Assembly (NCBI RefSeq): GCF_003265155.1
Contig: NZ_QKVO01000002.1
Coordinates: 1-24,000 of the forward strand
Direction of reading: 5' to 3'
DNA: 24,000 bases
Origin: Mycoplasma wenyonii
Lineage (GTDB): Bacteria; Bacillota_I; Bacilli_A; Mycoplasmatales; Mycoplasmoidaceae
Shown: positions 1 to 14,898 of the stretch, one piece after another
Position numbering within the stretch: position 1 is the first letter of the stretch
Layout of the letters: every line of letters starts with the position of its first letter
The notes under the pieces: model-generated
Told to the model about the DNA's origin: nothing
The model's database searches: none
Seen by the model: the letters and a program-made list of their open reading frames with translations, nothing else
Program-made: the position numbers and the translations under genes

Positions 1-494
1 CAAAAGGAAGACGACAATGTGATATAGAAATCGAGGGCGAGAAAAGATTTATTCTAGAGATTCATCCCTCCCTATCCTTTAAGAGTGATGTGAAAGCTGG
101 GATAGCATCTGATGATCTCTATTTAAAGGGCCGAGGTTATGTTGGTAATGAGTCTGTTAATTTTGAGGAGACAATTCTTGGGAGAGGTCACAGAAGTGGA
201 GGTGAAAATCGTTGACAGTTAAAGGTATTTAAATCCGGAACAACTAGGCTTGGTGAACTTAGTGGTGGTGAGGGGATAGATTATGGTGATGACGACATTG
301 AGTGTGGTAAGGACTGATTTATAGTTGAGAAACCTACTTATGAAGGGGAAGGGGATTGAGAAAAAGCTGTTTCAAAGGTTACTTTTAAGCTGGCAAACTG
401 TACTGATATAGCAAAAGGTAGAAAAGAATGTGAGATAAAAATCGCGAAAGAAAAATTTATTTTGAAGAAGAAAATCTCTTTCTTAAGCCTTTAA
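1..494 (+). CDS. Repeat-module protein, 5'-partial (end of module 0, linker, module 1); frame 3, TAA at 492-494
   Basis: Table-4 translation is open from the window edge: ..KGRRQCDIEIEGEKRFILEIHPSLSFKSDVKAGIASDDLYLKGRGYVGNESVNFEETILGRGHRSGGENRWQLKVFKSGTTRLGELSGGEGIDYGDDDIECGKDWFIVEKPTYEGEGDWEKAVSKVTFKLANCTDIAKGRKECEIKIAKEKFILKKKISFLSL*. In-frame TGA at 213, 315, 357. Confidence 0.6.
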
Positions 495-501
495 GAGTGG
501 T

Positions 502-915
502 GTGGGGGAAGGAGAACCTAAGGAGGGAGAAGTGCAAGATCTCTATTTAAGAGGTGAAGGTTATGATTCCGAGGGCAAGGCAATTGATTTTGATGAAAAG
601 ATTGTTTGGGCGGGGCACGGCTCTGGGAGAGGTGAGCTTCGTTGACAATTGACAGTTTATGAGTCCGGAAATTTTAAGTTAGGTGAGCTTGGTGGAGGGG
701 ATGGAATGAATGCTCCTGATGACAAAATTAACTGTGATAGGAAAGGAATATTTGAAGAGAATGGAGAAGAGGGATGATTTGGGGGAGCTGATCAATGAGA
801 AAAAGCTGTTAATTCAATTAAGTTCAAGCTCACTAATTGTGGGAACGCTGGAGGAAGACGACGATGTGATATAGAAATCTCGGAAGTAAAAAATTTACTA
901 ATTAAAAGATACTAG
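502..915 (+). CDS. Repeat-module ORF (module 2); frame 1 opens at 487, first canonical start GTG 502, TAG at 913-915; possibly a silent cassette rather than an independent gene
   Basis: AFKSGVGEGEPKEGEVQDLYLRGEGYDSEGKAIDFDEKIVWAGHGSGRGELRWQLTVYESGNFKLGELGGGDGMNAPDDKINCDRKGIFEENGEEGWFGGADQWEKAVNSIKFKLTNCGNAGGRRRCDIEISEVKNLLIKRY*. Homology to the other modules begins upstream of the GTG. Confidence 0.45.
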
Positions 916-1314
916 TCTTCTCTAGCCTTTAAGAGTGAGTGGTCAGGGATAGCACAAAATGATCTCTATTTAAAAGGCCTAAGTACTAAGACTGGGGCTG
1001 AAGTTAATTGGGATGAGAAAGTTGAATTCGGGGTAGGGGGTACTAACAAATGACAATTGAGTGTCATTGAAAATGGTGAGACCGAAATAATTGACCTAGG
1101 TGAAGCTTCAACAGGTTGAGGGGAAGCAGAAACATTTAATTGTGACCCGCAGAACGTCTTTAAAGTTACACAGCCAACTTATGGGCGGGAGACCTGAGAG
1201 GGGAAGAAATGAGTAAGGAGTGCTTCAAAAATCAAGTTCAAACTCGCTGATAATTGTACTAAAACGAAAGGAAGAGTAGAGTGTGATATAGAAATCGCGA
1301 GCGGGGAAATTTAA
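916..1314 (+). pseudogene. Repeat-module ORF (module 3), same frame as module 2 directly after the TAG; no ATG/GTG/TTG near its 5' end; TAA at 1312-1314
   Basis: SSLAFKSEWSGIAQNDLYLKGLSTKTGAEVNWDEKVEFGVGGTNKWQLSVIENGETEIIDLGEASTGWGEAETFNCDPQNVFKVTQPTYGRETWEGKKWVRSASKIKFKLADNCTKTKGRVECDIEIASGEI*. Only ATA (949) or TTA (970) could act as table-4 starts. Confidence 0.4.
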
Positions 1315-1324
1315 TTTATTTAAT

Positions 1325-1768
1325 TTGAAAAATCCATCTCTTCTAGCCTTTAAGAGTGGTGTGCAAGATGAAGCTCCTAGTGATGGAGAGAAAGATGATC
1401 TCTATTTAAAAGGCTTAGGTTATGCTGGCGGGGAGAGAGTTGATTTTGATGAGACTTACGAAGAGGAAGGGGGTGATGGGGAAAAGAGAACGCACCTTTG
1501 ACAATTGATTGTTTTTAAAGATACAGGGACGACTAAGGCGCAGACTATTCATAGTGGATTGGATTGGGGTGGTCGCGACGATGAACAGGGGACTTGTGAT
1601 AAGGGCTGGTTTGAAGTTGAAAAGCCTAAATTTGGAAGTACGGATATGTGACAAGAAGCTGTTGCAAAAGTGAGGTTCAAGCTAAGTAAATGTAGTAATG
1701 CGGGAGGTAGAAGAGAATGTGATATAGAAATCGCGGATTCAGTTGGATTAAAAGAATCTAGTTCCTAA
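1325..1768 (+). CDS. Repeat-module ORF (module 4, last unit); frame 2 opens at 1292, TTG 1325 is the first canonical start, TAA at 1766-1768
   Basis: ..KFNLFNLKNPSLLAFKSGVQDEAPSDGEKDDLYLKGLGYAGGERVDFDETYEEEGGDGEKRTHLWQLIVFKDTGTTKAQTIHSGLDWGGRDDEQGTCDKGWFEVEKPKFGSTDMWQEAVAKVRFKLSKCSNAGGRRECDIEIADSVGLKESSS*. Confidence 0.45.
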
Positions 1769-1775
1769 ATAATTA

Positions 1776-2344
1776 CTATCTCAAATAACCTATTTTTCAT
1801 AAAGAGGTTTTGTATTTATCTTTAGTCATCTCACTTCCAGTCATCTTTTTAACTACTAGATTACAAGTGGTTCCAGTTCCGCAAGGCAATTGACCCACAC
1901 ATTCAGATGTTCCTTTTTTCTTACAGAATGTAATCTCAGGCTTAGAATCACTTGACTTAGTCAATTTCAAAAGACCTAAAGGTCCTGAATTACCAGCCAT
2001 ATACCACAATTTCTTTGTATCTTTATCAGTTATATAAATTTTTCTACTAGTATCTTTATCTATTATTTCTTGAGGAAATTCAACTAATTTTTCATTGCTA
2101 GAGCTACTAGAAGAAGTAATACTAGCTAAAGATACTCATAAATTACAGATTCATATGTCTGTTCCTTGTTTATTTGCCGTTAAGCCACAAACTCACTCAC
2201 CATCACTAACTTTTTTTCTAAAAGTACTTTTAAAATCTCAAGAAGGATCAGTAAATCTAGATATTATGTAACCAGTTCCTATGCCCCCCCCGCAATAGCA
2301 GTTACAGCCACAGATGAAGAAAAAGCAAATAACTTAGAAACCAT
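1776..2344 (-). CDS. Signal-peptide/membrane-anchored Cys-containing protein, frameshifted at a G8 tract (phase OFF as sequenced); ~189 aa if the tract had 9 (or 6) G
   Basis: ATG at 2344 preceded by AGGAA. MVSKLFAFSSSVAVTAIAGGA then TAG with 8 G. The +1 frame is open (table 4) for all ~169 codons from the tract to TAG 1776-1778, and the first ~95 of these precede any ATG/GTG/TTG: ..GIGTGYIISRFTDPSWDFKSTFRKKVSDGEWVCGLTANKQGTDIWICNLWVSLASITSSSSSSNEKLVEFPQEIIDKDTSRKIYITDKDTKKLWYMAGNSGPLGLLKLTKSSDSKPEITFCKKKGTSECVGQLPCGTGTTCNLVVKKMTGSEMTKDKYKTSLWKIGYLR*. Confidence 0.6.
2284..2291 (-). repeat. Homopolymer C8 (+ strand) = G8 on the coding strand, codons 18-21 of the 1776-2344 gene; candidate slipped-strand phase-variation tract
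   Basis: Read directly: atg ccccccc|c gcaat at 2281-2295. It sits at the end of the signal-peptide coding segment, and a 1-nt length change restores the long ORF. Confidence 0.6.
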
Positions 2345-2436
2345 TTACTGGTTTCCTAGTTGCTGAAAAGAATTACCTAAATTTTATTTTTGAATTAACT
2401 ACTCTACAACTCTTTACCTAAGTACTCACAAAAGAT

Positions 2437-3024
2437 CTAAATTAAGAAGATTGCTTTAGGTTTAAAGTTAGGCTTTCATCCTAATCCAACTTCCTTAGAG
2501 ATATTTATCTCACATTCTTCTTTTCCCGATATCTCCTTACAGTTATCCAAAGTTAACTTAATCTTGTTAAATCCTTTATCAAAATGTTTATCTGCCTCCT
2601 TTGTTACTTCCAATACATCTTCATTACAAAATAGATTCTGATCATCATAGTTGTCTTCACCCATCCCTCCACTTAATGGAGCTATTCTTACTTTCTTTGA
2701 TACAGGAAAAATGGATAGTTCTCATGATGAATCTCTTGCTGTAATAATGTCTTCTAAACCAACATCTGTCTGTCTTTGTTGATCAAATCCTTTCCAATGT
2801 AGTTCTTTCTTTCCATCAGCCCCTAACTTGTAAATCAAAGACACATCAATAACATTAGAGCCAACGCTCTTGCAAGTAAGAATGGGAAGAGAAACTTGCC
2901 CTGCCCCTTCAAACACAAATGTGCCACGATCTACTTTCTTCCCCTTCATTAACTCATAAGCTACAGGAAGCCCACAACCAACACACACAGCCCCTCCTGC
3001 CATCAACAGCTTAGGAAGAAACAA
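2437..3024 (-). CDS. Secreted or membrane-anchored paralogue of the cassette module (195 aa), N-terminal hydrophobic signal with non-canonical lipobox-like AVCVGC
   Basis: TTG start 3024 (alternative ATG 3003). MFLPKLLMAGGAVCVGCGLPVAYELMKGKKVDRGTFVFEGAGQVSLPILTCKSVGSNVIDVSLIYKLGADGKKELHWKGFDQQRQTDVGLEDIITARDSSWELSIFPVSKKVRIAPLSGGMGEDNYDDQNLFCNEDVLEVTKEADKHFDKGFNKIKLTLDNCKEISGKEECEINISKEVGLGWKPNFKPKAIFLI*. It aligns to the array module along its whole length (ILTCKS/SLAFKS, SWEL/RWQL, LSGG.G, DD..C, KL.L.NC....ECEI.I). Two in-frame TGA; TAG at 2437-2439. Confidence 0.75.
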
Positions 3025-3066
3025 AACTAACTCTTGACTTTAAAAGTTAAACCTTAAATATCTTAA

Positions 3067-5484
3067 CTATTTATTAGAAAACAACTCTTTATACAGTTCT
3101 GAATAGTGTCTAATAGGTCTTAGTCTAATCTTTTCAAGTATTTCTTTAGGAATATCATCCAAGTGTCTTTCACTCTCTTTAGGATAGAAGATAGTATCTA
3201 CTCCTCCTCTAACAGCAGAGATAACCTTTTCTCTTAATCCTCCTATAGGCAATACCTTACCTCTAAGAGTCATCTCTCCAGTCATAGCTATATTGCTAGG
3301 AATAGGTACCTTTCTAAAGGCTGACAACATAGCTGTAGTGATAGTAATCCCAGCTGAAGGACCATCTTTCGGTATCCCTCCAGTTGGCACATGTAAGTTA
3401 ATGTCTATATCTGATCATTTAGTATCGTTTAACTTAAATTCACTTTCATTTGCCTTAATGTAAGAAAGTGCAACGTTAGCAGACTCTTTCATAGTATCTC
3501 TTAAGTTACCAGTAAGAATTAAATTGCCTTTTCCAGAGTAGTAATTTATCTCTACTGGAAGAAGATCTCCTCCATAATCTGTATAGGCCATTCCATTAAC
3601 CACTCCAGGTATAGATAATTCATCTTTAACTGTATGTTCATACTTCTCTTTGGAAAGATACTCCCTAACTATTTCTACATCAACATTCAAAGATACAAAG
3701 TCTTTATCTAGTTCTTGTTTTTGAATAAACTTTCTAGCTATTTGAGATAAAGATTGTTTCAACGCTCTCACCCCAGCCTCTCTGGTGTATCTCTGAATGA
3801 TGTAGGTAACTGCCTCATCAGTGAAGGTTAGTTCTGTGTCTTTTAACCCATGCTCTTCTAGCACTTCAGCTATTAAACCATTCTTAGCAATTTCTAGTTT
3901 TTCTCTTTCAGTGTAAGAAGATAACTTAATGATCTCTAATCTATCTAATAATGCTTCAGGTATATTGTCTTCATAATTGGCTGTAGCTATAAACATAACC
4001 TTTGAAAGATCTACTTCTTCTTCTATATAGTTATCTACAAATTGATGGTTTTGCTTAGGATCTAGTACTTCTAGTAAAGCTGATATAGGATCCCCATGAC
4101 TGCTACTTACTATCTTGTCAATCTCATCTAGTATGAATACAGGATTATTTACCTTTGCTTGTTTCAATCCTTTAATGATTCTTCCTGGCATAGCTCCAAC
4201 ATAGGTTTTTCTATGCCCTCTAATCTCAGCTTCATCGCTCAAACCTCCAAGAGAGATCTTTACACACTCCCTATTAAGACCTTTAGCTATTGATTGAGCT
4301 AATGAGGTTTTACCTACTCCTGGAGGTCCAGAAAGACAGATAATTGTTCCTTGTAGATTCTTTGTTTTCTTCTGAACAGCAACAAACTCAAGTATTCTTT
4401 CCTTGGGCTTATCTAAACCATGGTGATTCTTATCTAACTCTTTCTTAACCTTTGAAATAGTCTTTTGGTCTTTAGAGCTTCTTTCTCAAGGTAAAGCAAC
4501 TAACCAATTTAGATAAGAGTGAATAATCAAGCTCTCATTAGTTGAAATGACACTAGTGTACTCTAACTTCTTTAATTCCTCTTTAACTCTTTCTTTAACA
4601 TTGTGAGGGGCATCCACCATCTTTATTCAATCCTTGAATTTCTTTAGCTCTCCATCTCTAGAAAGACCTTCTCCTAACTCTTCTCTAATTACCTTTATTC
4701 TTTCTCTAAGATAGAACTCTCTTTGTTGCCTAGAGATGTTTCTATTTACCTTCTTTGAAATAGAACTATTGATCTCATCTTTTTCTGCCTCTGTTAGGTA
4801 TTCATAATCAAGCATTAAGGTAATTCTCTTTGAGAGATTTAGCTCTTCTAATCATTTTTGTTTCAAATCTACTCCATCCCTTTCATTTTGAGGTCAGATA
4901 CTACATAACTTATCTATGAGCTCTACACAAGAATCTTTACTAGAGTTCTCTACTCTCTCTATAGAAAAGAGTTTCTTGATATCTTCATAGTCTTTGCCTT
5001 GTACATCAAATAGTTCTTCAAAGTACTTAATTAGTTGTTCTAGGTCCTTTTTGTTCTTTACGAAGGAGGTGTTCTTTTCCTTAACGAACTCATAGTCTGC
5101 AAATCACATAGGACCCACATGTTCAAACCCAGTACATCTAATTACCTTAGGATCAGAAATTTGTACTCTTTGAATCCCATCTACCTTAGCTGTTATAGAA
5201 CCATCTTTATGTTGCTTAAGAATGCTCACCTTTGAGAGCGTACCAATCCTATATAAATCCGATGGAAGAGGGAAATCTACATCGTAGTCTTTCTGAGCAA
5301 TTACTACTATCTCTCCTTTGTGTTGAGTGAGAGCATAGTTAATGGAAGCTATAGAACACTCTCTACCAACCTCAATAATGTTCTTAGAGTTAGGGAAGAT
5401 AACTATATTTCTAGAAATTAATAGAGGAAGAGAATTATTAGTTACTGGTAGGTTGGTGTTTTCAGTTTCAGTCATACTAACCAT
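3067..5484 (-). CDS. lon: ATP-dependent Lon protease (805 aa)
   Basis: Four track fragments share one frame (ends 3390, 4242, 4815, 5484 all = 0 mod 3), joined only by TGA in the junctions I translated. Walker A GPPGVGKTSLAQSIAKGL, SDEAEIRGHRKTY, conserved LPW with W=TGA at 4486-4488, catalytic-Ser motif PKDGPSAGITI. ATG 5484, TAG 3067-3069. Confidence 0.97.
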
Positions 5485-5520
5485 TTAAGTTAATTCTTTG
5501 AAAAAAGTTCAAAGCTTATT

Positions 5521-5547
5521 TTAGCAGATTAATCTTTTAATTGCTAA
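5521..5547. promoter_or_regulatory. CIRCE-like inverted repeat (HrcA operator type) upstream of lon
   Basis: TTAGCAgat-taatctttt-aatTGCTAA has the 9+9+9 geometry of the CIRCE consensus TTAGCACTC-N9-GAGTGCTAA. The outer 6 nt of each arm match the consensus but the inner 3 nt diverge. It lies 37 nt upstream of the lon ATG. Confidence 0.5.
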
Positions 5548-5701
5548 ATTTACTTTCAAGCTAATATGAAAATAGCTCTTTAAGCAAGCTAAACTTGCAA
5601 ACCAAAAGATAAATTTATAAGTTTAGTAATTCTTAAAAATAAAATCTATATTGGTTTTTTGTTTGTTTTTTATTAAAAAGTAATCTCAATAGATTAGTTA
5701 C

Positions 5702-6142
5702 ATGGTTACAGAAATAAGAGCTTTCTCCAAAAGAAAAAAGAGTAGGGTAAATATCATTCTCACCACGCTCCCAAAAAGTGAGAATCAAGAACACAAACTC
5801 TTAATCTACACCAAAAAAGATGGAGAATACAGAGTAAGTAATCCAGTTGACTACTTCAAAGATGAATACTTAACTCCTATTCTTTTAAGCCCTTTCTCCT
5901 TTCTTCCCTCAAGAGCTTTAGAAGAAAAATACTCTGTAAAGGCTTTTCCTAAAGGAGGAGGGGTTAGCGCGCAGGCTCAAGCGATTGTGCTAGCTATCGC
6001 AAGAGCGCTTCTAAAATACTACCCAGAAATTAGAACTTCACTAAAGAGAGCTAACCTATTAACACAGGACCACAGAATGAAGGAAAGAAAAAAGATAGGT
6101 AAATACAAAGCTAGAAGATCTCCACAATTCACTAAGAGATAA
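5702..6142 (+). CDS. rpsI: 30S ribosomal protein S9
   Basis: 146 aa. [19 protein letters not shown] and the C-terminal [11 protein letters not shown] signature of uS9. Confidence 0.95.
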
Positions 6143-6987
6143 TGTCTTCAGAACAAGTGAAATTCACTCCCAAGATTGGATTTGGTACCGAATCTCTGAG
6201 AATCATTGAGATACTATCTCCATATCTAAAAGCGGCAAATGATCACAACTATGACTTTGTTGATTGTGGTTGAAAGTATGGAAATGAAGCTATTATTGGA
6301 CTAGCGCTTAGAGGTTTAAAAAGATCAGAACAAAAGTTTGAGTTTCTTCCCTATTTTCAATCAAAAGTGTGACCTTCTCAATTCTCTGGAGGGATTATTA
6401 AGTCTCTTAAGTTCTCCCTAAGCAAGATAGGTGTTGATACAGTAATACATACATACTTCCTTCATAGACCTTCAAATAATATGGAACTAAATCTTTCTGC
6501 CTACAAACAATTAATTTCCTGCAAGAATAATGCTTTAGCAAAGAGAATAGGTCTATGTAACTTTGATAAGGATGTAATTGAATGATTTCATAAGTTAACT
6601 GGAACACTGCCAGATGTTATTCAGTTTGAATGTTCTGTTAACAATATGAGATGAGACAGAATTGCATATTGCAGACAACACAATATTGAAATACAAGGAC
6701 ACACTCCTTTCGGTAACTATGAAAAGAATTCACAAAATCCTGTGTTGCAAGATATGGCTAAGAAATACAATGTTTCTCTTAAGACCTTATTAGTTGCTTA
6801 TCTACTAAATTTAGAAATAGTTCCTGTTGTGGTACCTAGTTCAGAAGACGAAATAGGAGAGATCATTAAAGCTAAAAAAATTAAATTAGATGAAAAAGAT
6901 ATAGAAACCCTAAAACAACTAAATGAATATGACAGTCAAACTTTTGAAACTCTACAAATTGACTATCCACAAGATGAACAAAACTAG
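6142..6987 (+). CDS. Aldo/keto reductase family oxidoreductase (281 aa)
   Basis: ATG 6142 overlaps the rpsI TAA (TAATG). Table-4 ORF with 4 in-frame TGA. AKR landmarks DCGWKYGNE (Asp/Tyr), SKVW (Lys), YFLHRP (His), LCNFD. Confidence 0.85.
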
Positions 6988-6990
6988 TTA

Positions 6991-7311
6991 ATGAGCAAGA
7001 AGATGGAGTTATGCTTTGAAATCAAAAACAAACAATATCTCTGTAATATAGGAGACAAGATCATCTCAGACTTTATAAAGAACACTGACTCAGGAGATGA
7101 ACTTAGTTTCTCTAATGTATTGCTTTACAAAGAAGAAATAGGCAAGCCTTATATTCCTAACCTAGAAGTTAAGTGCAAAGTAGTTAAACAAATAAAACAT
7201 AAGAAACTTCATATCTTACACTTAATTTCTCAAAAGAGACATAGAAAGAGAATGGGTTTCAGAGCTAAACACACTCTTCTGGAAGTTACTGAAGTAAAGA
7301 AGCTGTCCTAG
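6991..7311 (+). CDS. rplU: 50S ribosomal protein L21
   Basis: 106 aa, basic; ..KKLHILHLISQKRHRKRMGFRAKHTLLEVTEV typical of the bL21 C-terminal half. Confidence 0.88.
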   Translation: MSKKMELCFEIKNKQYLCNIGDKIISDFIKNTDSGDELSFSNVLLYKEEIGKPYIPNLEVKCKVVKQIKHKKLHILHLISQKRHRKRMGFRAKHTLLEVTEVKKLS

Positions 7312-7316
7312 TTTAA

Positions 7317-7796
7317 ATGTTCAAGACAAAAAAAGACGAGGCCCCTCTAAATACCAAAAACGTTGTATATAGATACTTCTTTTCAGGTACTTATGTTGAA
7401 AGAATGGATAACAAAAACAGAATAGCTATCCCTATTCCTTGAAGACATATTCTTAGAGATAAAGTCATTGTCACAAAAAACACTAATGTAGGTTGTTTAG
7501 TTGTATGAACTGTTGGTTTCTTTCAGTGATACGCTAACTCCAAAATCGAATCATGTGCCTCTGAACAAGAAAAACAACAAGTTAAGAGAATGTTTATTGG
7601 TAGCGCTAGAACGATAGATATTGATGCAAAGTCGAGAATGTGCCTTCCAGAAGATCTATTGACTATGCTTGTTCAACAAGATAACTATCTTTACTTTGTT
7701 GGTACTGGAGACTATATAGAGATTTGAACCAAAGAAATGTTTGAGAGCTGAAAATCCCAACAAATGCCTAAAGACTATAAAAACGAAGATCTTTAA
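7317..7796 (+). CDS. mraZ: Transcriptional regulator MraZ (159 aa)
   Basis: Two MraZ DxxxR half-sites: MDNKNRIAIP and IDAKSRMCLP. 5 in-frame TGA; ATG 7317, TAA 7794-7796. Confidence 0.92.
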
Positions 7797-7842
7797 TTAG
7801 TCTCTCTCCTGCCCTTAAATGGGCTGGGGAGATACTTAAGAC

Positions 7843-8775
7843 TTGACACAAAAACCCACTCACTTTCCTGTACTCAAGAAAGAAGTCTGTCAACACTGGC
7901 TTAACTCTCCAACAGGCTTCTATATAGACTGTACTTTTGGACAAGGAGGTCACTCAAAAGCTTTACTTAATCTTTTGTCCCCCGCAGCTTCTCTTTTGGG
8001 AATAGACATAGACCCTGATTGTTCTGAAGATGGCCTACAACTCTCTCAAGAAGACTCAAGATTTCGTTTCCAAAACCTTAACTACAGCTCACTTTATAAC
8101 TACTGAGTAAAACAAAAGCTTCCAAAAGCTTCTGGAGTACTCTTTGACCTAGGTTTCTCTACGGCTCAACTACAAGATCCTAAAAGATCTTTTAGCTACA
8201 ACTCTAGCTCTTCTTCTCTAGAGCTTAGATATGGATTAGATGGAAAGAGTGTCTATGAAATTCTCAATGAATACTCTGAACACAAACTCAACTGAATATT
8301 TAAACACTATGGGAATCTCAGAGAATATAAAGAGCTCACACAAGCTATTCTCAGAGAAAGAAAAAAAGAACCTATTACCAGCATAGAACAACTAAAAGCA
8401 ATACTCACTAATAACAAAGTCTTTCAAAAAAACAGATACAACAAGAACCAAATTAAGTTATTATTTCAAGCTCTTAGAATAGAGGCCAATAATGAACTAG
8501 AGAATCTAAGACACACTCTAGAGAAAGTTAAAGAGATACTAGAAGTTGGTGGTAAATTACTCATTATTACCTTTCAATCCCTAGAAGATGAACTAATAGA
8601 GGATTGAAAAAGGAAATATTCTTATTCCATCAAGATACCTGATATAGGGGAGACCATCCCTCCTTTATTCCAATTACATCCAGACTCCCCAATTCTACCT
8701 AGTAGAGAAGAAATAGAACTTAACTGAGCCTCTAGAAGCTCTAAGCTATGAGTCTTCACTAAGCTCAGAGAATAA
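7843..8775 (+). CDS. rsmH: 16S rRNA (cytosine1402-N4)-methyltransferase RsmH/MraW (310 aa)
   Basis: HFPVLKKEV, DCTFGQGGHS, FDLGFSTAQL, ALRIEANNEL, ITFQSLED motifs. TTG start 7843, TAA 8773-8775. Checked codon by codon from 8101 to the stop; only TGA interrupts. Confidence 0.93.
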
Positions 8776-8822
8776 AACATTTATTCTTTTTGTCCATTTC
8801 TACTTATTAATGAATTAAGAGA

Positions 8823-9374
8823 ATGTATCAACTCAAAAACAATCTAGGGTCTTTTGTTGAGAAAATTATGTCCAACACAGCTGAATACTATATCCAAAAT
8901 AACATAGCTTATTTAAGGAAATCTCATCCAGAATACATTCACCTATCAAAGAAGGCACAGAGACACTCTAATCTATTTGAAAATGAGGGAGACACCTATT
9001 CAATGAGAGTTTGTTCCAAAGGAGACCTAGACTTCTATGGTGTTTATAAAGGAAGGTATTTCTCCTTTGAGCTAAAAGAAACTCAAAAGCCAGTATTTGC
9101 TTTATCTCTAGTTAAAGACCATCAACTAGAGCAACTAAAGAGAATTGATTCTTGTGGGGGTTTAGCCTTTCTTCTTATTCACTTCTGTGACAATGATTCT
9201 AGATTTATACTCTTAAGTTATCCTGAACTCTTAAAGCTATTGGAACTGAAGAGAGCTAAAAGATTCTCAATAACTGACCTAGAAAAAGTTAAAAGTTATG
9301 AGTTAAAAATAGTATTTCCTAGTGTCTTTAATCTCTTTGAGCAACTAGATCAAATACTTTCAGACTCTAAATAA
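8823..9374 (+). CDS. recU: Holliday junction resolvase RecU (183 aa)
   Basis: GDLDFYGVYKGRYFSFELKET....VKDHQLEQL....GGLAFLLIHF matches the RecU catalytic core (D..G...G..FE.K.....HQ). Its 3' end overlaps the polC 3' end by 8 nt. Confidence 0.85.
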   Translation: MYQLKNNLGSFVEKIMSNTAEYYIQNNIAYLRKSHPEYIHLSKKAQRHSNLFENEGDTYSMRVCSKGDLDFYGVYKGRYFSFELKETQKPVFALSLVKDHQLEQLKRIDSCGGLAFLLIHFCDNDSRFILLSYPELLKLLELKRAKRFSITDLEKVKSYELKIVFPSVFNLFEQLDQILSDSK

Positions 9375-12300
9375 CTTTAGGACCAATTATCTCTAAATTC
9401 TCAAACAATTTCAAGATATTTATATTCAATTTCACTCTAGACTCTAAATCTGCTCTGTCTTTGTAGGCGCCATTTTTCTCCCTTTCTTCTTCTAGTTGAG
9501 AGGCGGTAATTGCCCCCAATCCTAAGATACAAGAAAAGGGAAGCAAGATAGTTCTATTGATTCTATCCGGTTTAAAAGTTGAGGCTAAAGACTCATTCAG
9601 TTGAACCATTCTGAACTTAATTCCTCTTGAAATCATTTCCAGTGCAACCTCATAGATCATTACTAGATACTTAGATTTCTCTGCATTCTCCTTACTAGAC
9701 TTACTCTTAACTCTTATCTTGTATTCTTGATATTTCCTCTTGATCTCTAGTAAATCATTAGTAATTAGAGACTCAATATCAAAGTGCTTATTGGTAATAG
9801 TGAAGTAAGCTGCATAGAACTCTACCGGATAGTAAAGCTTAAAGTAAGCTATTTTTCAACACATTAAGACATATGCAGTTGCATGTGCCTTTGGAAAGAT
9901 ATATGTGATCTTGTTGGCACAAGCAATATATCACTCAGGTACTTTAAAGTCCTTTAGAAGTTTTAAGTGCTCTTGAGGAATTCCTCTACCATTTCTAACA
10001 CTTTCAGCTATTCTAAAAGCTATATCAATACCTATTTTTTTATCTAACAAGTAGTTCATAATATCGTCTCTACAGGTAATTACCTCACTTAGATTTAGTT
10101 GATGGTTAGAGATCAATCTATCTATATTGTTTTTTCAGACATTCTTTCCATGGCTAATGCCTGAGATTCTTATTAAGTCTGAAAAGTGATTTAGTTTCTC
10201 TCTACAAGCTTTAACTATTTCTCTAGTTTTTTCGGTACCAAACTCAGGTAATCCTAGAGTTCCAACAGTCTCACCTATTAGCTCTAGTTTGTCGCTTGGT
10301 ATCTCTAATACAGAGATATCACTAAACATCTTGAGAATCTTCTTGTCATTGTAGCTAATTGTGTCTAAGTTCTGATTTGTTAGTTTGGAAAGTAAAGCTA
10401 ACATAGTTGGATCATCTTGCCCTAGTATGTCGAACTTAAAGAGTGAATCTTTGAGTGCATCTTTTTCAAAGTGAGTAGTTAATCAATCACTTGTAGTGTC
10501 ATTAGCTGGATAGTTAACGGGTGTATAGTTATAGATACTGTCTCCTTTAGGAATAACTATTATTCCTCCGGGGTGTTGTCCGGTAGTTCTCTTGATATCT
10601 GTGAGTCTACTAGAGAGTCAGTGTAACTTTCCTTTATTGAACTCGATCTCATTATCTAATAAATAATTTCTAGCTAAAGCGAAGGCCGTTTTCTCAGCGA
10701 CAGCAGAGATAGTTCCCGCTCTAAAGGTATTGTCTCTCCCAAATAACTCTCTAAGAAAGTTGTGTGCTTTCTGTTGATATTGACCAGAGAAGTTTAGGTC
10801 TATATCTGGTACCTTCTTCCTTTCTAGCCCTAGGAAAGTTTCGAAAGGAATGTGTTGTCCATCTTTATGTAGCTCCAAGTTGCAATTGGGACATTTTCTC
10901 TTGGGTAGGTCAAATCCAGATTCCTTGGTATTTTCCTTAAGTAAGAAATAAGAACATTTACTGCAATAATAGTGAGGTGGTAGTGGGTTAACCTCACTAA
11001 TCTCCAGCACATAAGCTAAGAAGGAAGAGCCCACAGAACCTCGAGAGCCGACCAAGAAACCTTCTGACTTAGACCTTTGAACTAATAGGTGTGCACACCA
11101 ATAAACAGTTTCATAACCATTCTCCTGAATACCTTGTAATTCCCTATTTAAGGTAGCTACTAGATATGAATTGGGTTTTGGTCCATATTTATTACTTAAT
11201 TTGCGATTAACATAGTTTTTTATGTTTTCAAAAGCCCCATCAATCTTAGGTAAAGAAAGAGTAGAAATATGTATCTTGATATCCGAGGAAATAGAGTCAA
11301 CTATCTCTTCTCTGTACTTGAAAAATAGTTCCTCTGTTTGCTCTTCAGTTAGTCCTAGAAACTCAAATTCTTTAATGAATCTTTCAGTGGTTCTAAATGA
11401 AAGGTCTGGCAAAACATCATTACTGAACTTAGAAGAGAAAAGAGGATGTCTTTTCCCGCCTATATTCTTGGCATGTACTATGACTTTGTATTGTTCTATC
11501 TCCTCGTATCATTTGAACTTCAAACAATAGTTAGCCATAACCTTAAAATTGCATTCCTTAGACCATCTATAGAACTTCTTAAGTAGGCCTTGAATTTCCT
11601 CTAAGGTATATCTTTTTCTATGAATCTCATGTAGGAAATGAGAAGGCGGAGGTAAGCTCAAATAGTCTAGTTTTTTTCCTTCTTCTAAAAAGAGTTCATA
11701 GTCGTCTTTAAAGAGTGCATCTAACATAACACTATTGGTAGGTGAAGAGATAAGAATTAAGTCTTTTCTCTTTTCTTGAATAGACTCCCAGTCAAGTTGG
11801 GGTTTATCTACAAAGCAATCTATGTGGGCTTTTGAGATTAACTCATAGAGTGACCTTATTCCCTCTTGATTCTTAGCGAAGAAAATCACATTAGAACCAA
11901 AGTAATTTCTCAACATCTTCTTTGAGTTAAAGAGAGTATTGATACCATCTAGCTGTTCATATACATATGGATCTATGGAGAATTCATAGAGTTGTTTTTC
12001 TCATTGTTTTCAGAGTCTTAATAAGCATTGAGTGTCGTATTCTGCAGAGTGAAGCTCTCTTTCGACTACATTGAAAGACATCTTTTTAGATAAAGCAAAG
12101 AGAGAATAAGACTTAGACTTCTTTTCACCCTCTAAAGCTTTAGCGAGTAGGATAGTGTCTAATAAAGGAGCTTGAATTGGTTCTAGCTTAGCCTTCTTAT
12201 ATTGAGCATTTAAGAATGGTAGGTCAAACTCAAGTCCATTGTGAGCCATCAAGATAGTTCCAGAAACATACTCTTTAACTTCTTTTAAGACCTGTATCTT

Positions 12301-13698
12301 GTCTCTACCTAATAAATCCAGCTTTTCATCTGTGATATGAGTTAAGTCAATAATTTCACTACTTAATTTCTTTTCACATTTAAGATAGCTGTGATAGTGA
12401 TCCATGATGATTCCATTGCTGTACTTAACTATGTAGATTTCTATTATTTCGTCAAATAAGGGATTTAGTCCTGTGGTTTCTAGGTCAAAGATAGAGTAGA
12501 CAACTGCACTATTCGGTTCCAATAAGTGAAGATTGGAAAGAATCTTTAAGTTCTCAGGAACAACTTCTATTTCGGAACCATACAAAGGTTTAAGACCATA
12601 CTTCTTTGCACTCTTCTCTGCTTCCGGAAAAACATGTACATTATTGAAGTCTGTGAATGCAATCACTTCATGACCTAATGATTTAGCCAATTCAGCTCAT
12701 TGCTCAGAGCTGAATAGTCCATCAAAACTAGAGTATTTGGTGTATACATTCAAAGAGAAAGCTTTCTTTGGGGAGTTATCAATTAACTTAAGGCCTTCAG
12801 GGAAATCAACCTCTGAGCAGTTCAATAACCAACCATCATAGTTTGATAGAGTCTTAGAGTTAGAGAGAGACTTTTCATCTAATTGGAACTCTATCTCGAA
12901 TCAATTTCCTACTTTTAGTATCTTTAAGCTTTTTTCTTTTTCCTCTGGAGAAGAAAGTCTACCTAAAGCTAATAAATAATGTTCAGTGAAATTAGTGAAA
13001 CCAACCTTGTACATCTTTTGGCCTCTAAAGTTATAGTTCTCTACTTCTTGAAAGAAATAGAGCTTGAATGTACCTTTACCTCTTGAATCTAAGGTTTTTA
13101 TAGAGCCAGAGAGAATGGGAGATGGAGTTGGGATCAAAGAAGAGGCGCTACTAGTTCTTAATAGTTCTTCAGGTACATAGTTTGAAGGAGAAGTAGATGG
13201 TACTAAAGGAACTTGTTCAACCTTAGCTATAGAAAGATATATCTGTTTTTGTTCAAATACAAACTCTAAGAAGGCTTGAAGATTAGAGAGATATTTCTGA
13301 AAGTATTTCTCGTAGGCTATATTTAGAGCCTTCAATATCACTTGAGGGAACTCAAAACATAAATGAACTTCCTTAAAACTACCCTTAAAAGCTTTAGATT
13401 GTTCTTCTTCTGCAAATGAAGCATAGGTTTCAAATCAACTTAGTAAGAGTCGATGTAAAGAAGTAGAGTTATAGAGATAGTTAAGTCTTACAACTAAAGT
13501 ACAAACCTGAGAAGAGAAATTAAATAGGGCAAATAGTTCTTTTGGTGCTGGCTCTTTGAAATACTCGAATATTAAAAAGAAATGATCTTTATTGGGTGAA
13601 AACTCTCATTTAAACTCAGCTTTACTTAATAACTTTTCTAGTTCTTCTTTATTAAATATCCTTAATTCCTCTGAAAGCAATCATTTGAGTTTCTCCAT
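9367..13698 (-). CDS. polC: DNA polymerase III alpha subunit, PolC type (1443 aa)
   Basis: Seven track fragments plus the 5' segment up to ATG 13698 share one frame (all ends = 0 mod 3). The N-terminal and C-terminal junctions I translated are interrupted only by TGA. 3'-5' exonuclease [10 protein letters not shown], Zn finger [44 protein letters not shown] 13698. Confidence 0.97.
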
Positions 13699-13858
13699 TA
13701 TTTTCTAACTAACTAAAAATTTAGAAAATCAAGACCATAGGGAAAATAAGGGGTATTCATCTTAAAATTAAAGATTGATTACGCACTTAGTGTATTTTCT
13801 TCTATATGATGTCACAAGCGAACAATATATTCTAGGAACTCAAACTCTTTAACGATCT

Positions 13859-14392
13859 ATGCAAAGTAAAACAGCAGTTAGGTTCATTAAGAGAACAATT
13901 AGAAATGTTTTAGATTTCTTTTATTGCAGTAGAGACAGGTTACAGGAAGGAGTAGAAAAAGTATTAAATATCTGGATTTATGAAATAATTGCTTTTGTAG
14001 GTTTGGTAGCTGGTTGTTTAGGGATAGGGATAGGTAAGAGTGATTGAAACCAAGCAGGCCTTTTGTGAGCAGGTCCTACAGGATTTACATTCTTACTTAA
14101 CTTGTTCATTATTTTGAACTGATTTTCAATGATGAAGAGAAACAGTAATGATCAAATAATTGTTAACTTTCCTCCACAAGTTAAAAATCTATTGTTGCTA
14201 AATATCTTGTTAGGATTCTTCTTTCCATATGGTATTTTTGCTAAAAGCCTATTCTATAAGCACTTCTATGCTCTTTACAAGCAAAATCAACTATACTGAG
14301 CTAATCCAAATGACACCAGACAAGAAAGAAGAAAGAGATACAGAGAATATAGAGCTCAAAAGAGAAGAGAAATGGACTCAATAATTGGCTAA
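13859..14392 (+). CDS. Hypothetical membrane protein (177 aa, about 3 TM segments, basic C-terminus)
   Basis: ATG 13859. Table-4 ORF with 4 in-frame TGA. Hydrophobic stretches IIAFVGLVAGCLGIGIG, GFTFLLNLFIILNWF, LLLLNILLGFFFPYGIF. TAA 14390-14392. Confidence 0.6.
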
Positions 14393-14898
14393 ATTACCTT
14401 ACCATAGGAAAAGAGAAATATAGAGTAGTTTTTCTCCCTAAGACTAAAATCTTCTTCTTTTAGTAGTTTTCACTCGCTATCCCTAGACCATTCCCTTATT
14501 TTCTTTGGGTAAGCATGTGGCAAACAACAAAGTCATAACTGTTTAGTCTTTCAGTCTTCGGGCAATTTCTCTAGTATAGTAATGATCTTTTTAGAACCTA
14601 ATCCAGCTAACACAATAAGTATCTCTTTGTAACCTCTAATATTCTCAAAAGAAAGCTCAGAGAATCCATCTGATAAAAAAAACCTAGCTTTTAAGTCTAC
14701 CCCTTTCTCTGAATAAAGCTTTTGAGAATTCTTTAATGAGACCTTACTTAACTCAACATTTCAAACCTCACTAATTAATTCATTTCTTAAGAGCTTTAAG
14801 CCTAAAAGGCCAAGATCAGCTCCTATATCAACTAAAAGAAAGTTATTGTTAGGAGTCAAAATAGCAGAGAGAAACTCTGCTATCTTCCTTATCCTTAT
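14389..14898 (-). CDS. trmK: tRNA (adenine22-N1)-methyltransferase TrmK-like SAM methyltransferase; start codon uncertain (ATA 14898?)
   Basis: ..IRIRKIAEFLSAILTPNNNFLLVDIGADLGLLGLKLL...VWNVELSKVSLKNSQKL....LSDGFSEL....EILIVLAGLGSKKIITILEKL parallels TrmK (RL..IA..I...DIGSDHAYLP...GDGL...ITIAGMGG.LI..IL). The frame opens right after the rpsD TAG, and there is no ATG/GTG/TTG upstream of the conserved N-terminus. Confidence 0.72.

What the first reader, a model, noticed from the sequence alone, without database searches (positions are those of the whole stretch)
1..1768. Hidden tandem array of coding cassettes for an unrecognised Cys-containing ~140-aa module
The ORF track shows nothing on the + strand here, yet with UGA=Trp the strand is coding almost end to end. 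Four complete units plus a truncated one recur every 411-438 bp. Each encodes the same module, by-eye consensus SL[AS]FKS..DLYLKG.GY...(V/I).F(D/E)E......RWQL.V..SG...LGEL.GG.G....D..C........W(E/Q).AV..(V/I).FKL..C......(R/E)C(D/E)I(E/K)I. Amino-acid identity between units is only about 40-50% by eye. Short nucleotide islands are nevertheless identical in every unit (CCTTTAAGAGTG, GATCTCTATTTAA, TGTGATATAGAAATC; TGACAATTGA in 3 of 4). Positions 6-34 and 852-882 are near-identical over ~28 nt, which suggests ongoing sequence exchange. Invariant islands bracketing diverged segments is the layout of recombination-fed cassette reservoirs (MgPa repeats of M. genitalium, vlhA pseudogene arrays of M. 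synoviae, vls cassettes of Borrelia). The region also looks more G-rich than the rest of the window.
Basis: partly seen in the sequence, partly recalled or inferred. Interest (0 to 1): 0.8.

Follow-up and report, generated by a model that had tools for sequence, protein, structure and literature searches.

The report
Leaderless lipoprotein-module array in a haemoplasma
The left end of this Mycoplasma wenyonii window holds a head-to-tail array of truncated, signal-less copies of a lineage-specific surface-lipoprotein-like gene, with intact cores, broken junctions and codon-frozen boundary motifs, which most resembles a silent-cassette store for antigen shuffling, although no expressed recipient gene has been found.

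Summary
The window is Mycoplasma wenyonii INIFAP02 (UGA=Trp). Positions 1-1768 (+) hold the tail of one module plus four complete ~140-codon modules, spaced 411-438 nt and 34-47% identical.

The module is not an orphan. It is the central ~125 residues of a ~200-aa putative lipoprotein family restricted to M. wenyonii and M. ovis, with no Pfam, PDB-sequence or Foldseek match. At the same lon-rplJ site, M. ovis has one full-length copy. M. wenyonii Massachusetts has ten, most with a poly-G tract after the signal peptide.

The array copies all lack the leader, the first conserved Cys and the C-terminal tail. Their cores are open (0 stops in 546 codons, about 33 expected). All three frame breaks lie in the linkers. 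Boundary islands keep identical codons (7/7 columns vs 1/8 elsewhere). In a second strain the last module is a mosaic that switches parent at an island.

The same design recurs in four datasets. None of 17 full-length genes carries the islands, so no recipient is known.

Best reading (about 0.45): a promoterless cassette archive that recombines at the islands. Main rival (about 0.3): a decaying internal-repeat gene.

The parts
1..68 (+). 3' end of an upstream module (U0: ..KGRRQCDIEI), with island 3 at 18-32, followed by the linker EGEKRFILEIHP. The array runs off the contig and window end.
   Evidence: P0002 is annotated 'DNK47_00795, partial'.
69..482 (+). Module U1 (frame 3, 138 codons). 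Island 1 at 76-87, island 2 at 114-126, island 3 variant at 429-443.
   Evidence: matches family-profile positions 57-191 of 199.
477..486 (+). Junction U1/U2: a +1 frameshift caused by an extra A in TTAAGCC, where the other junctions read CTAGCC. Single-base event in a ~7x draft, so unverified.
   Evidence: coverage figure from PMC6256526.
487..912 (+). Module U2 (frame 1, 142 codons). Islands at 488-499, 538-550 and 865-879.
913..915 (+). In-frame TAG in the U2/U3 linker.
916..1311 (+). Module U3 (frame 1, 132 codons). Islands at 926-937, 961-973 and 1282-1296.
   Evidence: P0020 is a gene call made inside it.
1312..1339 (+). Junction U3/U4: TAA at 1312-1314 and at 1321-1323, then an A5 run and a frame change. 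Both TAA codons are conserved in a second strain, where the run is A7.
   Evidence: 33-nt exact match between window 1300 and L002 22.
1340..1768 (+). Module U4 (frame 2, 142 codons plus TAA at 1766-1768). Islands at 1347-1358, 1397-1409 and 1718-1732. It keeps a stub of the family tail (ADSVGLK).
1779..2344 (-). Neighbouring signal-peptide ORF that a G8 tract (2284-2291) puts out of frame. Not detectably related to the module family.
2437..3024 (-). Full-length paralogue (P0003): hydrophobic or lipoprotein-type leader, PILTC, module, and VGLGWKPNFKPKAIFLI tail. Co-oriented with lon, convergent with the array. Start is TTG at 3024 or ATG at 3003.
   Evidence: profile positions 3-198; AlphaFold2 pLDDT 84.
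3067..5484 (-). lon (805 aa), the synteny anchor of the locus.

Best explanation
Window 1-1768 is the lon-proximal end of an inverted, promoterless array of cassette-type partial genes. Each unit is the central ~125 codons of a haemoplasma-specific, ~200-aa, four-Cys, all-beta putative surface lipoprotein. Each unit has lost its signal peptide or lipobox leader, the first Cys strand and the C-terminal strand-forming tail, and is joined to the next by an AT-rich ~45-nt linker.

The units are probably not translated as one protein, because most junctions carry stops or frameshifts, and one of these is conserved between strains. The cores nevertheless stay open.

The proposed mechanism is as follows. 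Short boundary sequences, frozen at the nucleotide level (CCTTTAAGAGT, GATCTCTATTTA and TGTGATATAGAAATC, extending to 30-33 nt in some pairs), act as recombination anchors. Variable cores are swapped between units at these anchors and, by inference, into an expressed family member. That would diversify an exposed antigen during chronic bacteraemia.

What is shown: the truncation pattern, open cores, junction-restricted disruptions, codon freezing, one inter-strain mosaic with a breakpoint at an island, and recurrence of the design.

What is inferred: transfer into an expressed gene, surface exposure, and a role in immune evasion.
For: 1. Uniform truncation. Against a 199-position full-length family profile, every array module covers only positions ~57/70 to 181/191, whereas 17 full-length genes cover 1-198.
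2. The missing parts look structural. In the AlphaFold2 model of the full-length paralogue (pLDDT 84, pTM 0.78) they are confident beta-strands (28-31, 42-45, 174-176, 183-187). The isolated module models worse (pLDDT 72, pTM 0.61).
3. Core ORFs are maintained. There are 0 stops in 546 module codons against about 33 expected from the off-frame stop density (P about 1e-15). All 3 disruptions fall in 56 of 1697 nt (P about 4e-5).
4. The U3/U4 junction stops are shared with a strain about 13% diverged, yet the last module is open in both strains.
5. dN/dS among modules is 0.42-0.79 with dS about 1.
6. Islands keep identical codons in 7/7 invariant-residue columns against 1/8 elsewhere (Fisher p=0.0012). 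The longest exact matches between any two modules always sit on islands, up to 30-33 nt.
7. Mosaic. The core of L2last matches P1a at 78/104 and its positional orthologue U4 at 39/99. Its tail matches U4 at 7/11 and P1a at 1/11.
8. The same architecture appears in L005 (same sample), L002 (second strain) and L009 (fourth dataset).
9. Context. The family sits in a contingency locus: ten poly-G-bearing copies in the Massachusetts strain and a poly-G ORF beside the array.
10. There is no promoter-like site in any linker and no conserved start codon across modules.
Against: - No recipient. None of the 17 full-length family genes readable here carries any island within 2 mismatches. The adjacent full-length gene is only 25-33% identical to the modules.
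- Outside the islands the modules are about 60-70% identical in DNA. The islands (12-33 nt) are at or below the usual length needed for efficient homologous recombination (established knowledge, not tested here).
- Some leaderless modules are visibly decaying. P1b and L009-X have lost both C-terminal Cys, and the solitary L006 copy has a TAG inside island 2.
- The mosaic rests on one module in one strain pair, and the P1a comparison is at protein level only.
- The draft has ~7x coverage and the array lies at a contig end.
- There are no expression data of any kind.
Confidence: 0.45

Rival explanations
1. Decaying internal-repeat gene. A single ancestral full-length lipoprotein gene amplified its central segment into a multi-module surface protein. 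That gene was later inactivated, and what remains is a pseudogene with no current function. The junction-only breaks reflect the mutability of the AT-rich, homopolymer-rich linkers.
For: - The first module of the presumed array (P1a) keeps a remnant of the FPLFTC region (FFPTFHIS) behind a non-hydrophobic N-terminus. The last module (U4) keeps a stub of the tail (ADSVGLK). This is what an internally amplified single gene would leave.
- Partial decay is seen in P1b, L009-X and L006.
- No recipient gene was found.
- dN/dS is fairly high, 0.42-0.79.
- The linkers contain A5-A7, T3 and G4 runs.
- The haemoplasma literature already suspects that many paralogue-family members are unannotated pseudogenes (PMC3958358).
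Against: - At least one junction disruption predates the split of two strains about 13% diverged, yet both descendant modules are open over 142-147 codons.
- There are 0 stops in 546 codons where about 33 are expected, and no frameshift inside any of 8 intact cores.
- Neutral decay does not explain codon freezing confined to the islands, nor a core replaced by another intact core.
Confidence: 0.3
2. Expressed after all. Either the three breaks in the window are errors of a 7x Illumina draft and the array encodes one large multi-module protein, or each module is translated separately from internal GTG, TTG or ATG starts as a small leaderless protein.
For: - Coverage is only ~7x (PMC6256526).
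- The U1/U2 break is a single extra base.
- Two junctions (U0/U1 and P1a/P1b) are open in frame, so two-module ORFs exist (P0002 at 163 aa, P0001 at 323 aa).
- An in-frame GTG directly follows island 1 in U1, U2, U4 and L2last, and gene callers used it.
- Module ORFs are clearly under coding constraint.
Against: - The TAA-TAA junction is identical in an independent sample. Stops or frameshifts recur at junctions in L005 and L009.
- U3 and L005-c have no early start codon.
- No signal peptide exists anywhere in the array, although the family is otherwise leader-bearing.
- The modules lack four strands and one Cys of the predicted fold.
- There are no promoter-like sites in the linkers.
Confidence: 0.15
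3. Assembly artefact. The array is a chimeric collapse or mis-join of dispersed paralogues at a contig end.
For: - The array sits at the contig end in the NCBI draft.
- Three Logan contigs break at or next to islands.
- P0028 in the NCBI assembly and P0009 in the Logan assembly differ in how the same region is joined.
Against: - Units are only 60-70% identical and the shared exact words are 33 nt or less, far below the 300-nt reads and the k of up to 127 that were used.
- The same unit-linker-unit design was assembled independently in SRR422575, SRR10197851 and GCA_000215545.2.
Confidence: 0.05

Closest known systems
vlhA system of Mycoplasma synoviae (one expressed lipoprotein gene plus a large tandem array of 5'-truncated pseudogenes used as gene-conversion donors); from my own knowledge, not tested here
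   Same: A Mollicute system built on a lipoprotein family. The donor copies lack the promoter and the signal-peptide-encoding 5' end, are arranged head to tail, and mostly stay open.
   Different: vlhA donors share long, highly similar stretches with the expression site, and that site is known. Here no island-bearing expressed gene was found. The units are also truncated at the 3' end, are 34-47% identical, and belong to an unrelated protein family.
vls locus of Borrelia burgdorferi (vlsE plus about 15 silent cassettes); from my own knowledge
   Same: An adjacent, oppositely oriented array of both-ends-truncated cassettes that forms an almost continuous ORF with a few stops and frameshifts. 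Short direct repeats sit at the cassette boundaries. The coding strand is G-rich with strong GC skew. Invariant framework alternates with variable segments.
   Different: vls cassettes are about 90% identical to each other and to vlsE. The boundary repeat is shared with the expression site. Switching has been demonstrated experimentally. None of these holds or is known here, and the neighbouring full-length gene P0003 lacks the islands.
MgPa repeats (MgPar) of Mycoplasma genitalium and msp2/p44 'functional pseudogenes' of Anaplasma; from my own knowledge
   Same: Promoterless partial copies with conserved ends and a hypervariable centre, separated by AT-rich spacers (MgPar). Anaplasma marginale is also a bovine erythrocyte pathogen with cyclic bacteraemia.
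   Different: Those systems have defined expression sites (mgpB/mgpC, or the msp2 operon) with high flank identity. The copies are dispersed rather than a tight 420-nt-period array.
Homopolymer or repeat-in-leader phase-variable surface protein families (Neisseria opa, Mycoplasma hominis vaa); from my own knowledge
   Same: The sister strain's ten full-length copies, and the ORF beside the array, carry G7-G9 tracts just after the signal peptide that set the reading frame.
   Different: The array modules themselves carry no such tract and no leader. Only the A5/A7 run in one linker differs between strains, and stops remain in either state.
Haemoplasma paralogous gene families as described generically (PMC3958358, PMC3196708)
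   Same: Lineage-specific hypothetical-protein families. The literature reports positional shuffling between strains, suspected pseudogenes and proposed antigenic variation.
   Different: Those papers, as far as I searched them, do not describe this family, its lon-rplJ locus, the poly-G tracts or leaderless module arrays.

Membership tests
Haemoplasma lon-rplJ ~200-aa putative lipoprotein family (P0003, WEN_01625-01645, OVS_02700, DNK47_01845) | Significant sequence match to the family profile | tested here: met
   Array modules score 94-155 bits (E 1e-27 to 1e-46) against the full-length family HMM. The exhaustive HMMER search found 22 representatives, all from M. wenyonii, M. ovis or unnamed samples.
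Haemoplasma lon-rplJ ~200-aa putative lipoprotein family | N-terminal hydrophobic leader with a Cys-containing lipobox-like motif | tested here: not met
   The array modules begin at profile position 57-70, and no hydrophobic segment occurs in any frame of 1-1768. The feature is present in P0003 at 2437-3024 (-).
Haemoplasma lon-rplJ ~200-aa putative lipoprotein family | Four conserved Cys (P-I/L-L/F-x-C, I-x-C, L-x-x-C, E-C-x-I-x-I) | tested here: not met
   The modules keep the last three and lack the first. P1b and L009-X have also lost the last two.
Haemoplasma lon-rplJ ~200-aa putative lipoprotein family | C-terminal VGLxWKxxFxPKxIF tail | tested here: not met
   Absent from U1-U3. U4 and L2last keep only the stubs DSVGLK and DSVGW.
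Silent-cassette gene-conversion systems (vls, vlhA, MgPar, msp2 type) | Several promoterless, truncated copies of a surface-protein gene | tested here: met
   At least 4.1 units in the window and at least 3.5 more in L005. All are truncated at both ends, and no promoter-like site occurs in any linker.
Silent-cassette gene-conversion systems | Conserved boundary sequences flanking variable segments | tested here: met
   Three islands are exact in nearly all units and across strains, and are codon-frozen.
Silent-cassette gene-conversion systems | An expression site: a full-length, promoter-bearing homologue that shares the boundary sequences | tested here: not met
   0 of 17 full-length genes in the window, L002, L003, L004 and L007 carry any island within 2 mismatches. 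This is incomplete, because the INIFAP02 contig holding DNK47_02045/02050 and the gap upstream of the window could not be read.
Silent-cassette gene-conversion systems | Mosaic variants produced by segmental exchange | tested here: inconclusive
   There is one clear inter-strain mosaic with a breakpoint at island 3. P0028 looks mosaic at protein level. No within-host or time-series data exist.
Silent-cassette gene-conversion systems | Observed switching of the expressed antigen during infection | not testable with these tools
   This needs longitudinal sampling of infected cattle.
Tandem-repeat surface protein (a single ORF with internal repeats) | One continuous ORF with a signal peptide spanning the repeats | tested here: not met
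   There are three breaks in the window, and at least one is conserved in a second strain. No leader is present. The caveats are the 7x draft and the unseen 5' end of the array.
Any curated protein family or solved fold | A match to Pfam-A, to PDB sequences, or to PDB structures by Foldseek | tested here: not met

The most novel reading that the evidence does not exclude
Ruminant haemoplasmas may run one antigen family at one locus (lon-rplJ) in two alternative variation modes. The Massachusetts lineage has ten complete genes, each with its own poly-G frame switch. The INIFAP02 lineage has an inverted archive of leaderless cassettes that recombine at 12-33-nt codon-frozen anchors into a still unseen expressed copy. 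That would be the first defined antigenic-variation machinery in an uncultivable haemoplasma. It would also be a natural case of one antigen family being varied by phase switching in one lineage and by cassette conversion in a sister lineage.
Probability: 0.3. Interest if true: 0.8.

Novelty: new member of a known kind. Interest (0 to 1): 0.55.

Why it matters
Haemoplasmas cannot be cultured and cause chronic, cyclic bacteraemia. They are assumed to vary their surface, but the literature offers only generic paralogue-pool arguments (PMC3196708, PMC3958358).

This locus provides a concrete, small and PCR-addressable target of about 4-6 kb between lon and rplJ. It has explicit predictions: core swaps at three defined motifs, and poly-G length changes in neighbouring genes.

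It also explains why short-read assemblies of these genomes break here. It flags a structurally novel, lineage-restricted, Cys-stabilised beta-domain as a candidate antigen for diagnostics or vaccines. If the array is only a decaying gene, it still documents how one locus expanded from 1 to 10 genes, or into a fused module array, in closely related strains.

Tried and rejected
- Source genome in the species-representative collection. A protein-pattern scan and an island DNA pattern scan both found nothing, so neither INIFAP02 nor the L002 strain is held there. The metagenome scan was also empty.
- Extending the array leftwards. The Logan contig of the same reads starts at window 1761. The 5' end of the array and the DNA of DNK47_02045/02050 therefore remain unseen.
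- RNA element or promoter explanations for the islands. There is no Rfam hit in the window, and promoter-like sites are below the shuffle expectation with none in the linkers.
- Island 1 as a ribosome-binding site plus GTG start for independent genes. I rejected this as a general explanation because U3 and L005-c lack the GTG and AAGAG is a poor Shine-Dalgarno match.
- The adjacent poly-G ORF as a distant family member. Rejected: hhalign probability is 0.2%.
- The adjacent full-length gene P0003 as the expression site. It has no islands and only 25-33% identity to the modules.
- TRF does not see the array at all. The wider 9-sequence alignment was too diverged for the locus scanner.
Full report
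**1. Where the window comes from**

Under the standard bacterial code the window is a field of fragments. With UGA=Trp it resolves into intact housekeeping genes: Lon at 805 aa and PolC at 1445 aa, alongside RsmH, MraZ and RecU. The first ORF of the window is 100% identical to 'DNK47_00795, partial' of Mycoplasma wenyonii. This is the INIFAP02 draft, made from MiSeq 2x300 reads at about 7x coverage in 37 contigs (PMC6256526). The window therefore begins at a contig end. A Logan re-assembly of SRR10197851 is 100% identical to window 1761-14448 and starts exactly where the array stops.

**2.

Positions 1-1768 (+) contain the tail of one unit and four complete units, spaced 411-438 nt apart.

- **Islands.** The 12- and 13-nt islands are exact in all four units. 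The 15-nt island is exact in 4 of 5 copies, and the fifth has 2 mismatches. None of the islands occurs elsewhere in the 24 kb, and no shuffle reaches these counts.
- **Identity.** Units are 34-47% identical in protein.
- **Reading frame.** One frame runs through all the units and is broken three times: a +1 shift at about 483, a TAG at 913-915, and TAA codons at 1312-1314 and 1321-1323 with a frame change.
- **Composition.** GC skew is +0.43. The neighbouring paralogue is equally G-rich on its own coding strand, so this is a family trait and not specific to the array.

**3. What the module is**

The minus-strand ORF at 2437-3024 (P0003) is a paralogue. It adds a hydrophobic leader, a PILTC motif and a VGLGWKPNFKPKAIFLI tail.

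A word-indexed search of 5.8 billion proteins found five relatives. An exhaustive HMMER search of 1.84 billion cluster representatives found 22. Those that carry a source name are from M. wenyonii INIFAP02, M. wenyonii Massachusetts and M. ovis, and several are labelled 'Lipoprotein' by UniProt rules.

The typical member is 185-227 aa long. It consists of a leader, four conserved Cys and a C-terminal tail. There is no match in Pfam, PDB sequences or Foldseek PDB. AlphaFold2 models the full-length protein confidently as an all-beta domain (pLDDT 84, pTM 0.78).

**4. The locus in relatives**

The family occupies the interval between lon and the rplJ/S10 ribosomal operon. Three states are seen at this one site.

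| Genome | Content of the lon-rplJ interval |
|---|---|
| M. ovis | One full-length copy |
| M. wenyonii Massachusetts (finished genome) | Ten tandem full-length copies, co-oriented with lon, spaced about 570-710 nt |
| INIFAP02 and a second strain (SRR422575; flanks 85-88% identical) | One full-length copy, an unrelated poly-G ORF, then the array in inverted orientation |

In the Massachusetts cluster, seven of the ten copies carry a G7-G9 tract directly after the signal peptide. Five have the leader out of frame or missing.

**5. How the array units differ from real genes**

Against a 199-position full-length profile, every unit covers only positions ~57/70 to 181/191. The units lack the leader, the first Cys and the tail. 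In the model those missing segments are confident beta-strands. The isolated unit models less well (pLDDT 72).

The islands are specific to leaderless units. They are absent, within 2 mismatches, from all 17 full-length genes I could read.

**6. Evidence that the cores are maintained and exchanged**

- **Open cores.** There are no stops in 546 module codons, against about 33 expected from the off-frame stop density (P about 1e-15).
- **Junction-only breaks.** All three disruptions lie in 56 of 1697 nt (P about 4e-5).
- **An old break with open descendants.** The TAA-TAA junction before the last unit is conserved in the second strain, where only an A5/A7 run differs. The downstream unit is open in both strains.
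- **Coding constraint.** dN/dS is 0.42-0.79 at dS about 1.
- **Codon freezing.** Inside the islands, all 7 invariant-residue columns use one codon in every one of 6-7 units, including Leu-CTC. Elsewhere only 1 of 8 such columns does (Fisher p=0.0012).
- **Exact matches sit on islands.** The longest exact matches between units always lie on islands and reach 30-33 nt. This also explains the assembly breaks.
- **A mosaic.** The last unit of the second strain shares its flanks with its positional orthologue U4. Its core matches P1a, a unit of DNK47_02050, at 78/104 positions, and U4 at only 39/99. The switch occurs at the CDIEI island.

**7. Recurrence and decay**

L005, from the same sample, reads: end of P1a, then P1b, then a stop and frameshift, then unit c, then two stops, then unit d. 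L009, an 814-nt contig of GCA_000215545.2, reads: unit X, then a stop and frameshift, then unit Y.

Not all units are pristine. P1b and X have lost both C-terminal Cys. A solitary leaderless copy in an M. ovis-like sample has a TAG inside island 2.

By locus-tag arithmetic and shared contig length, DNK47_02045/02050 lie two or three genes beyond rplJ. The 'second array' is therefore probably the far end of the same array, on the other side of the assembly gap. This is an inference and has not been shown.

**8. Interpretation**

The best-supported reading is a promoterless archive of both-ends-truncated cassettes whose cores are shuffled at frozen boundary motifs. The closest analogues are M. 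synoviae vlhA pseudogenes and the Borrelia vls silent cassettes, which also form a near-continuous ORF with a few stops and shifts and show strong GC skew (my own knowledge).

The decisive missing piece is a recipient gene. None was found, and the units are much more diverged than known donors. I therefore give this reading about 0.45. A decaying internal-repeat gene gets about 0.3. An expressed array, through draft errors or independent translation, gets about 0.15. An assembly artefact gets about 0.05.

**9. Novelty**

Haemoplasma paralogue families, their shuffling between strains and suspected pseudogenes are known in general terms (PMC3958358, PMC3196708). I found no description of this family, its locus, its poly-G tracts or leaderless arrays. 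I classify it as a new member of a known kind, in an uncharacterised protein family with no detectable solved fold relative.

Noticed in passing
window 1779-2344 (-), G8 tract at 2284-2291: This ORF starts with ATG and a signal-like leader (MVSKLFAFSSSVAVTAIAGG) that runs into a G8 tract and then a stop. The remaining 185 codons continue in another frame. The second strain (L002 1017-1024) has the same G8 and the same OFF state. It is a candidate slipped-strand phase-variable gene and is not related to the module family (hhalign probability 0.2%).
   Followed up: partly
L003 (M. wenyonii Massachusetts CP003703, 324032-344652): 8128-8135, 9432-9439, 10733-10740, 12001-12008, 12688-12694, 13329-13336, 14032-14040: Seven of the ten tandem full-length paralogues between lon and rplJ carry a G7-G9 tract immediately after the signal peptide. 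In five of the ten copies the leader is out of frame with the body or missing. This looks like a ten-gene contingency locus with an independent ON/OFF switch per gene.
   Followed up: partly
window 2559-2750 (-), inside the full-length paralogue P0003: Between the two strains the 5' and 3' parts of this gene are 86-88% identical in DNA, but the central ~190 nt are too diverged for blastn, and P0003 and P0005 are only 40% identical in protein. The other strain's core (RWVLKVFRSGTTRL) looks more like array unit U1 (RWQLKVFKSGTTRL) than like P0003.
   Followed up: partly
L004 6833-9427 (SRR10197851_294, same sample as the window): A second family cluster lies after the rpoA/L17 end of the ribosomal operon. 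It holds three distant paralogues (25-40 bits) plus P0006 (DNK47_01845), and the contig ends about 90 nt after P0006.
   Followed up: no
window 1761; L002 1; L005 1: Three independent short-read contigs begin at or inside the array's boundary sequences. L005 starts on a 30-nt word shared exactly with window 1709-1738. The islands therefore act as de Bruijn graph branch points, and this locus will be a systematic assembly gap in short-read haemoplasma genomes.
   Followed up: yes
L006 6083-6495 (SRR26391074_58969, M. ovis-like): A solitary leaderless module with the array-type 5' linker (FNLKIKSFLTFKS) and a TAG inside DLYL sits in a different genomic neighbourhood (iPGM, IMPDH, phosphoribosyltransferase). 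It lies beside a signal-peptide gene that is 68% identical in DNA to the region between P0007 and rplJ of M. ovis.
   Followed up: partly
window 1326-1330 vs L002 51-57: The A-run in the U3/U4 linker is A5 in the window and A7 in the other strain. This changes the relative frame of the two units, although two TAA codons block read-through in both.
   Followed up: yes
P0028 (DNK47_02045) vs L005 459-860: P0028 is almost identical to array unit c over its first ~75 residues. It then carries WEKPVTD as in unit P1b and a complete family tail (ADSVGLKWGTKVKPKAIFCASH). It may be a mosaic, or even a tail-bearing recipient. Its DNA could not be retrieved.
   Followed up: partly
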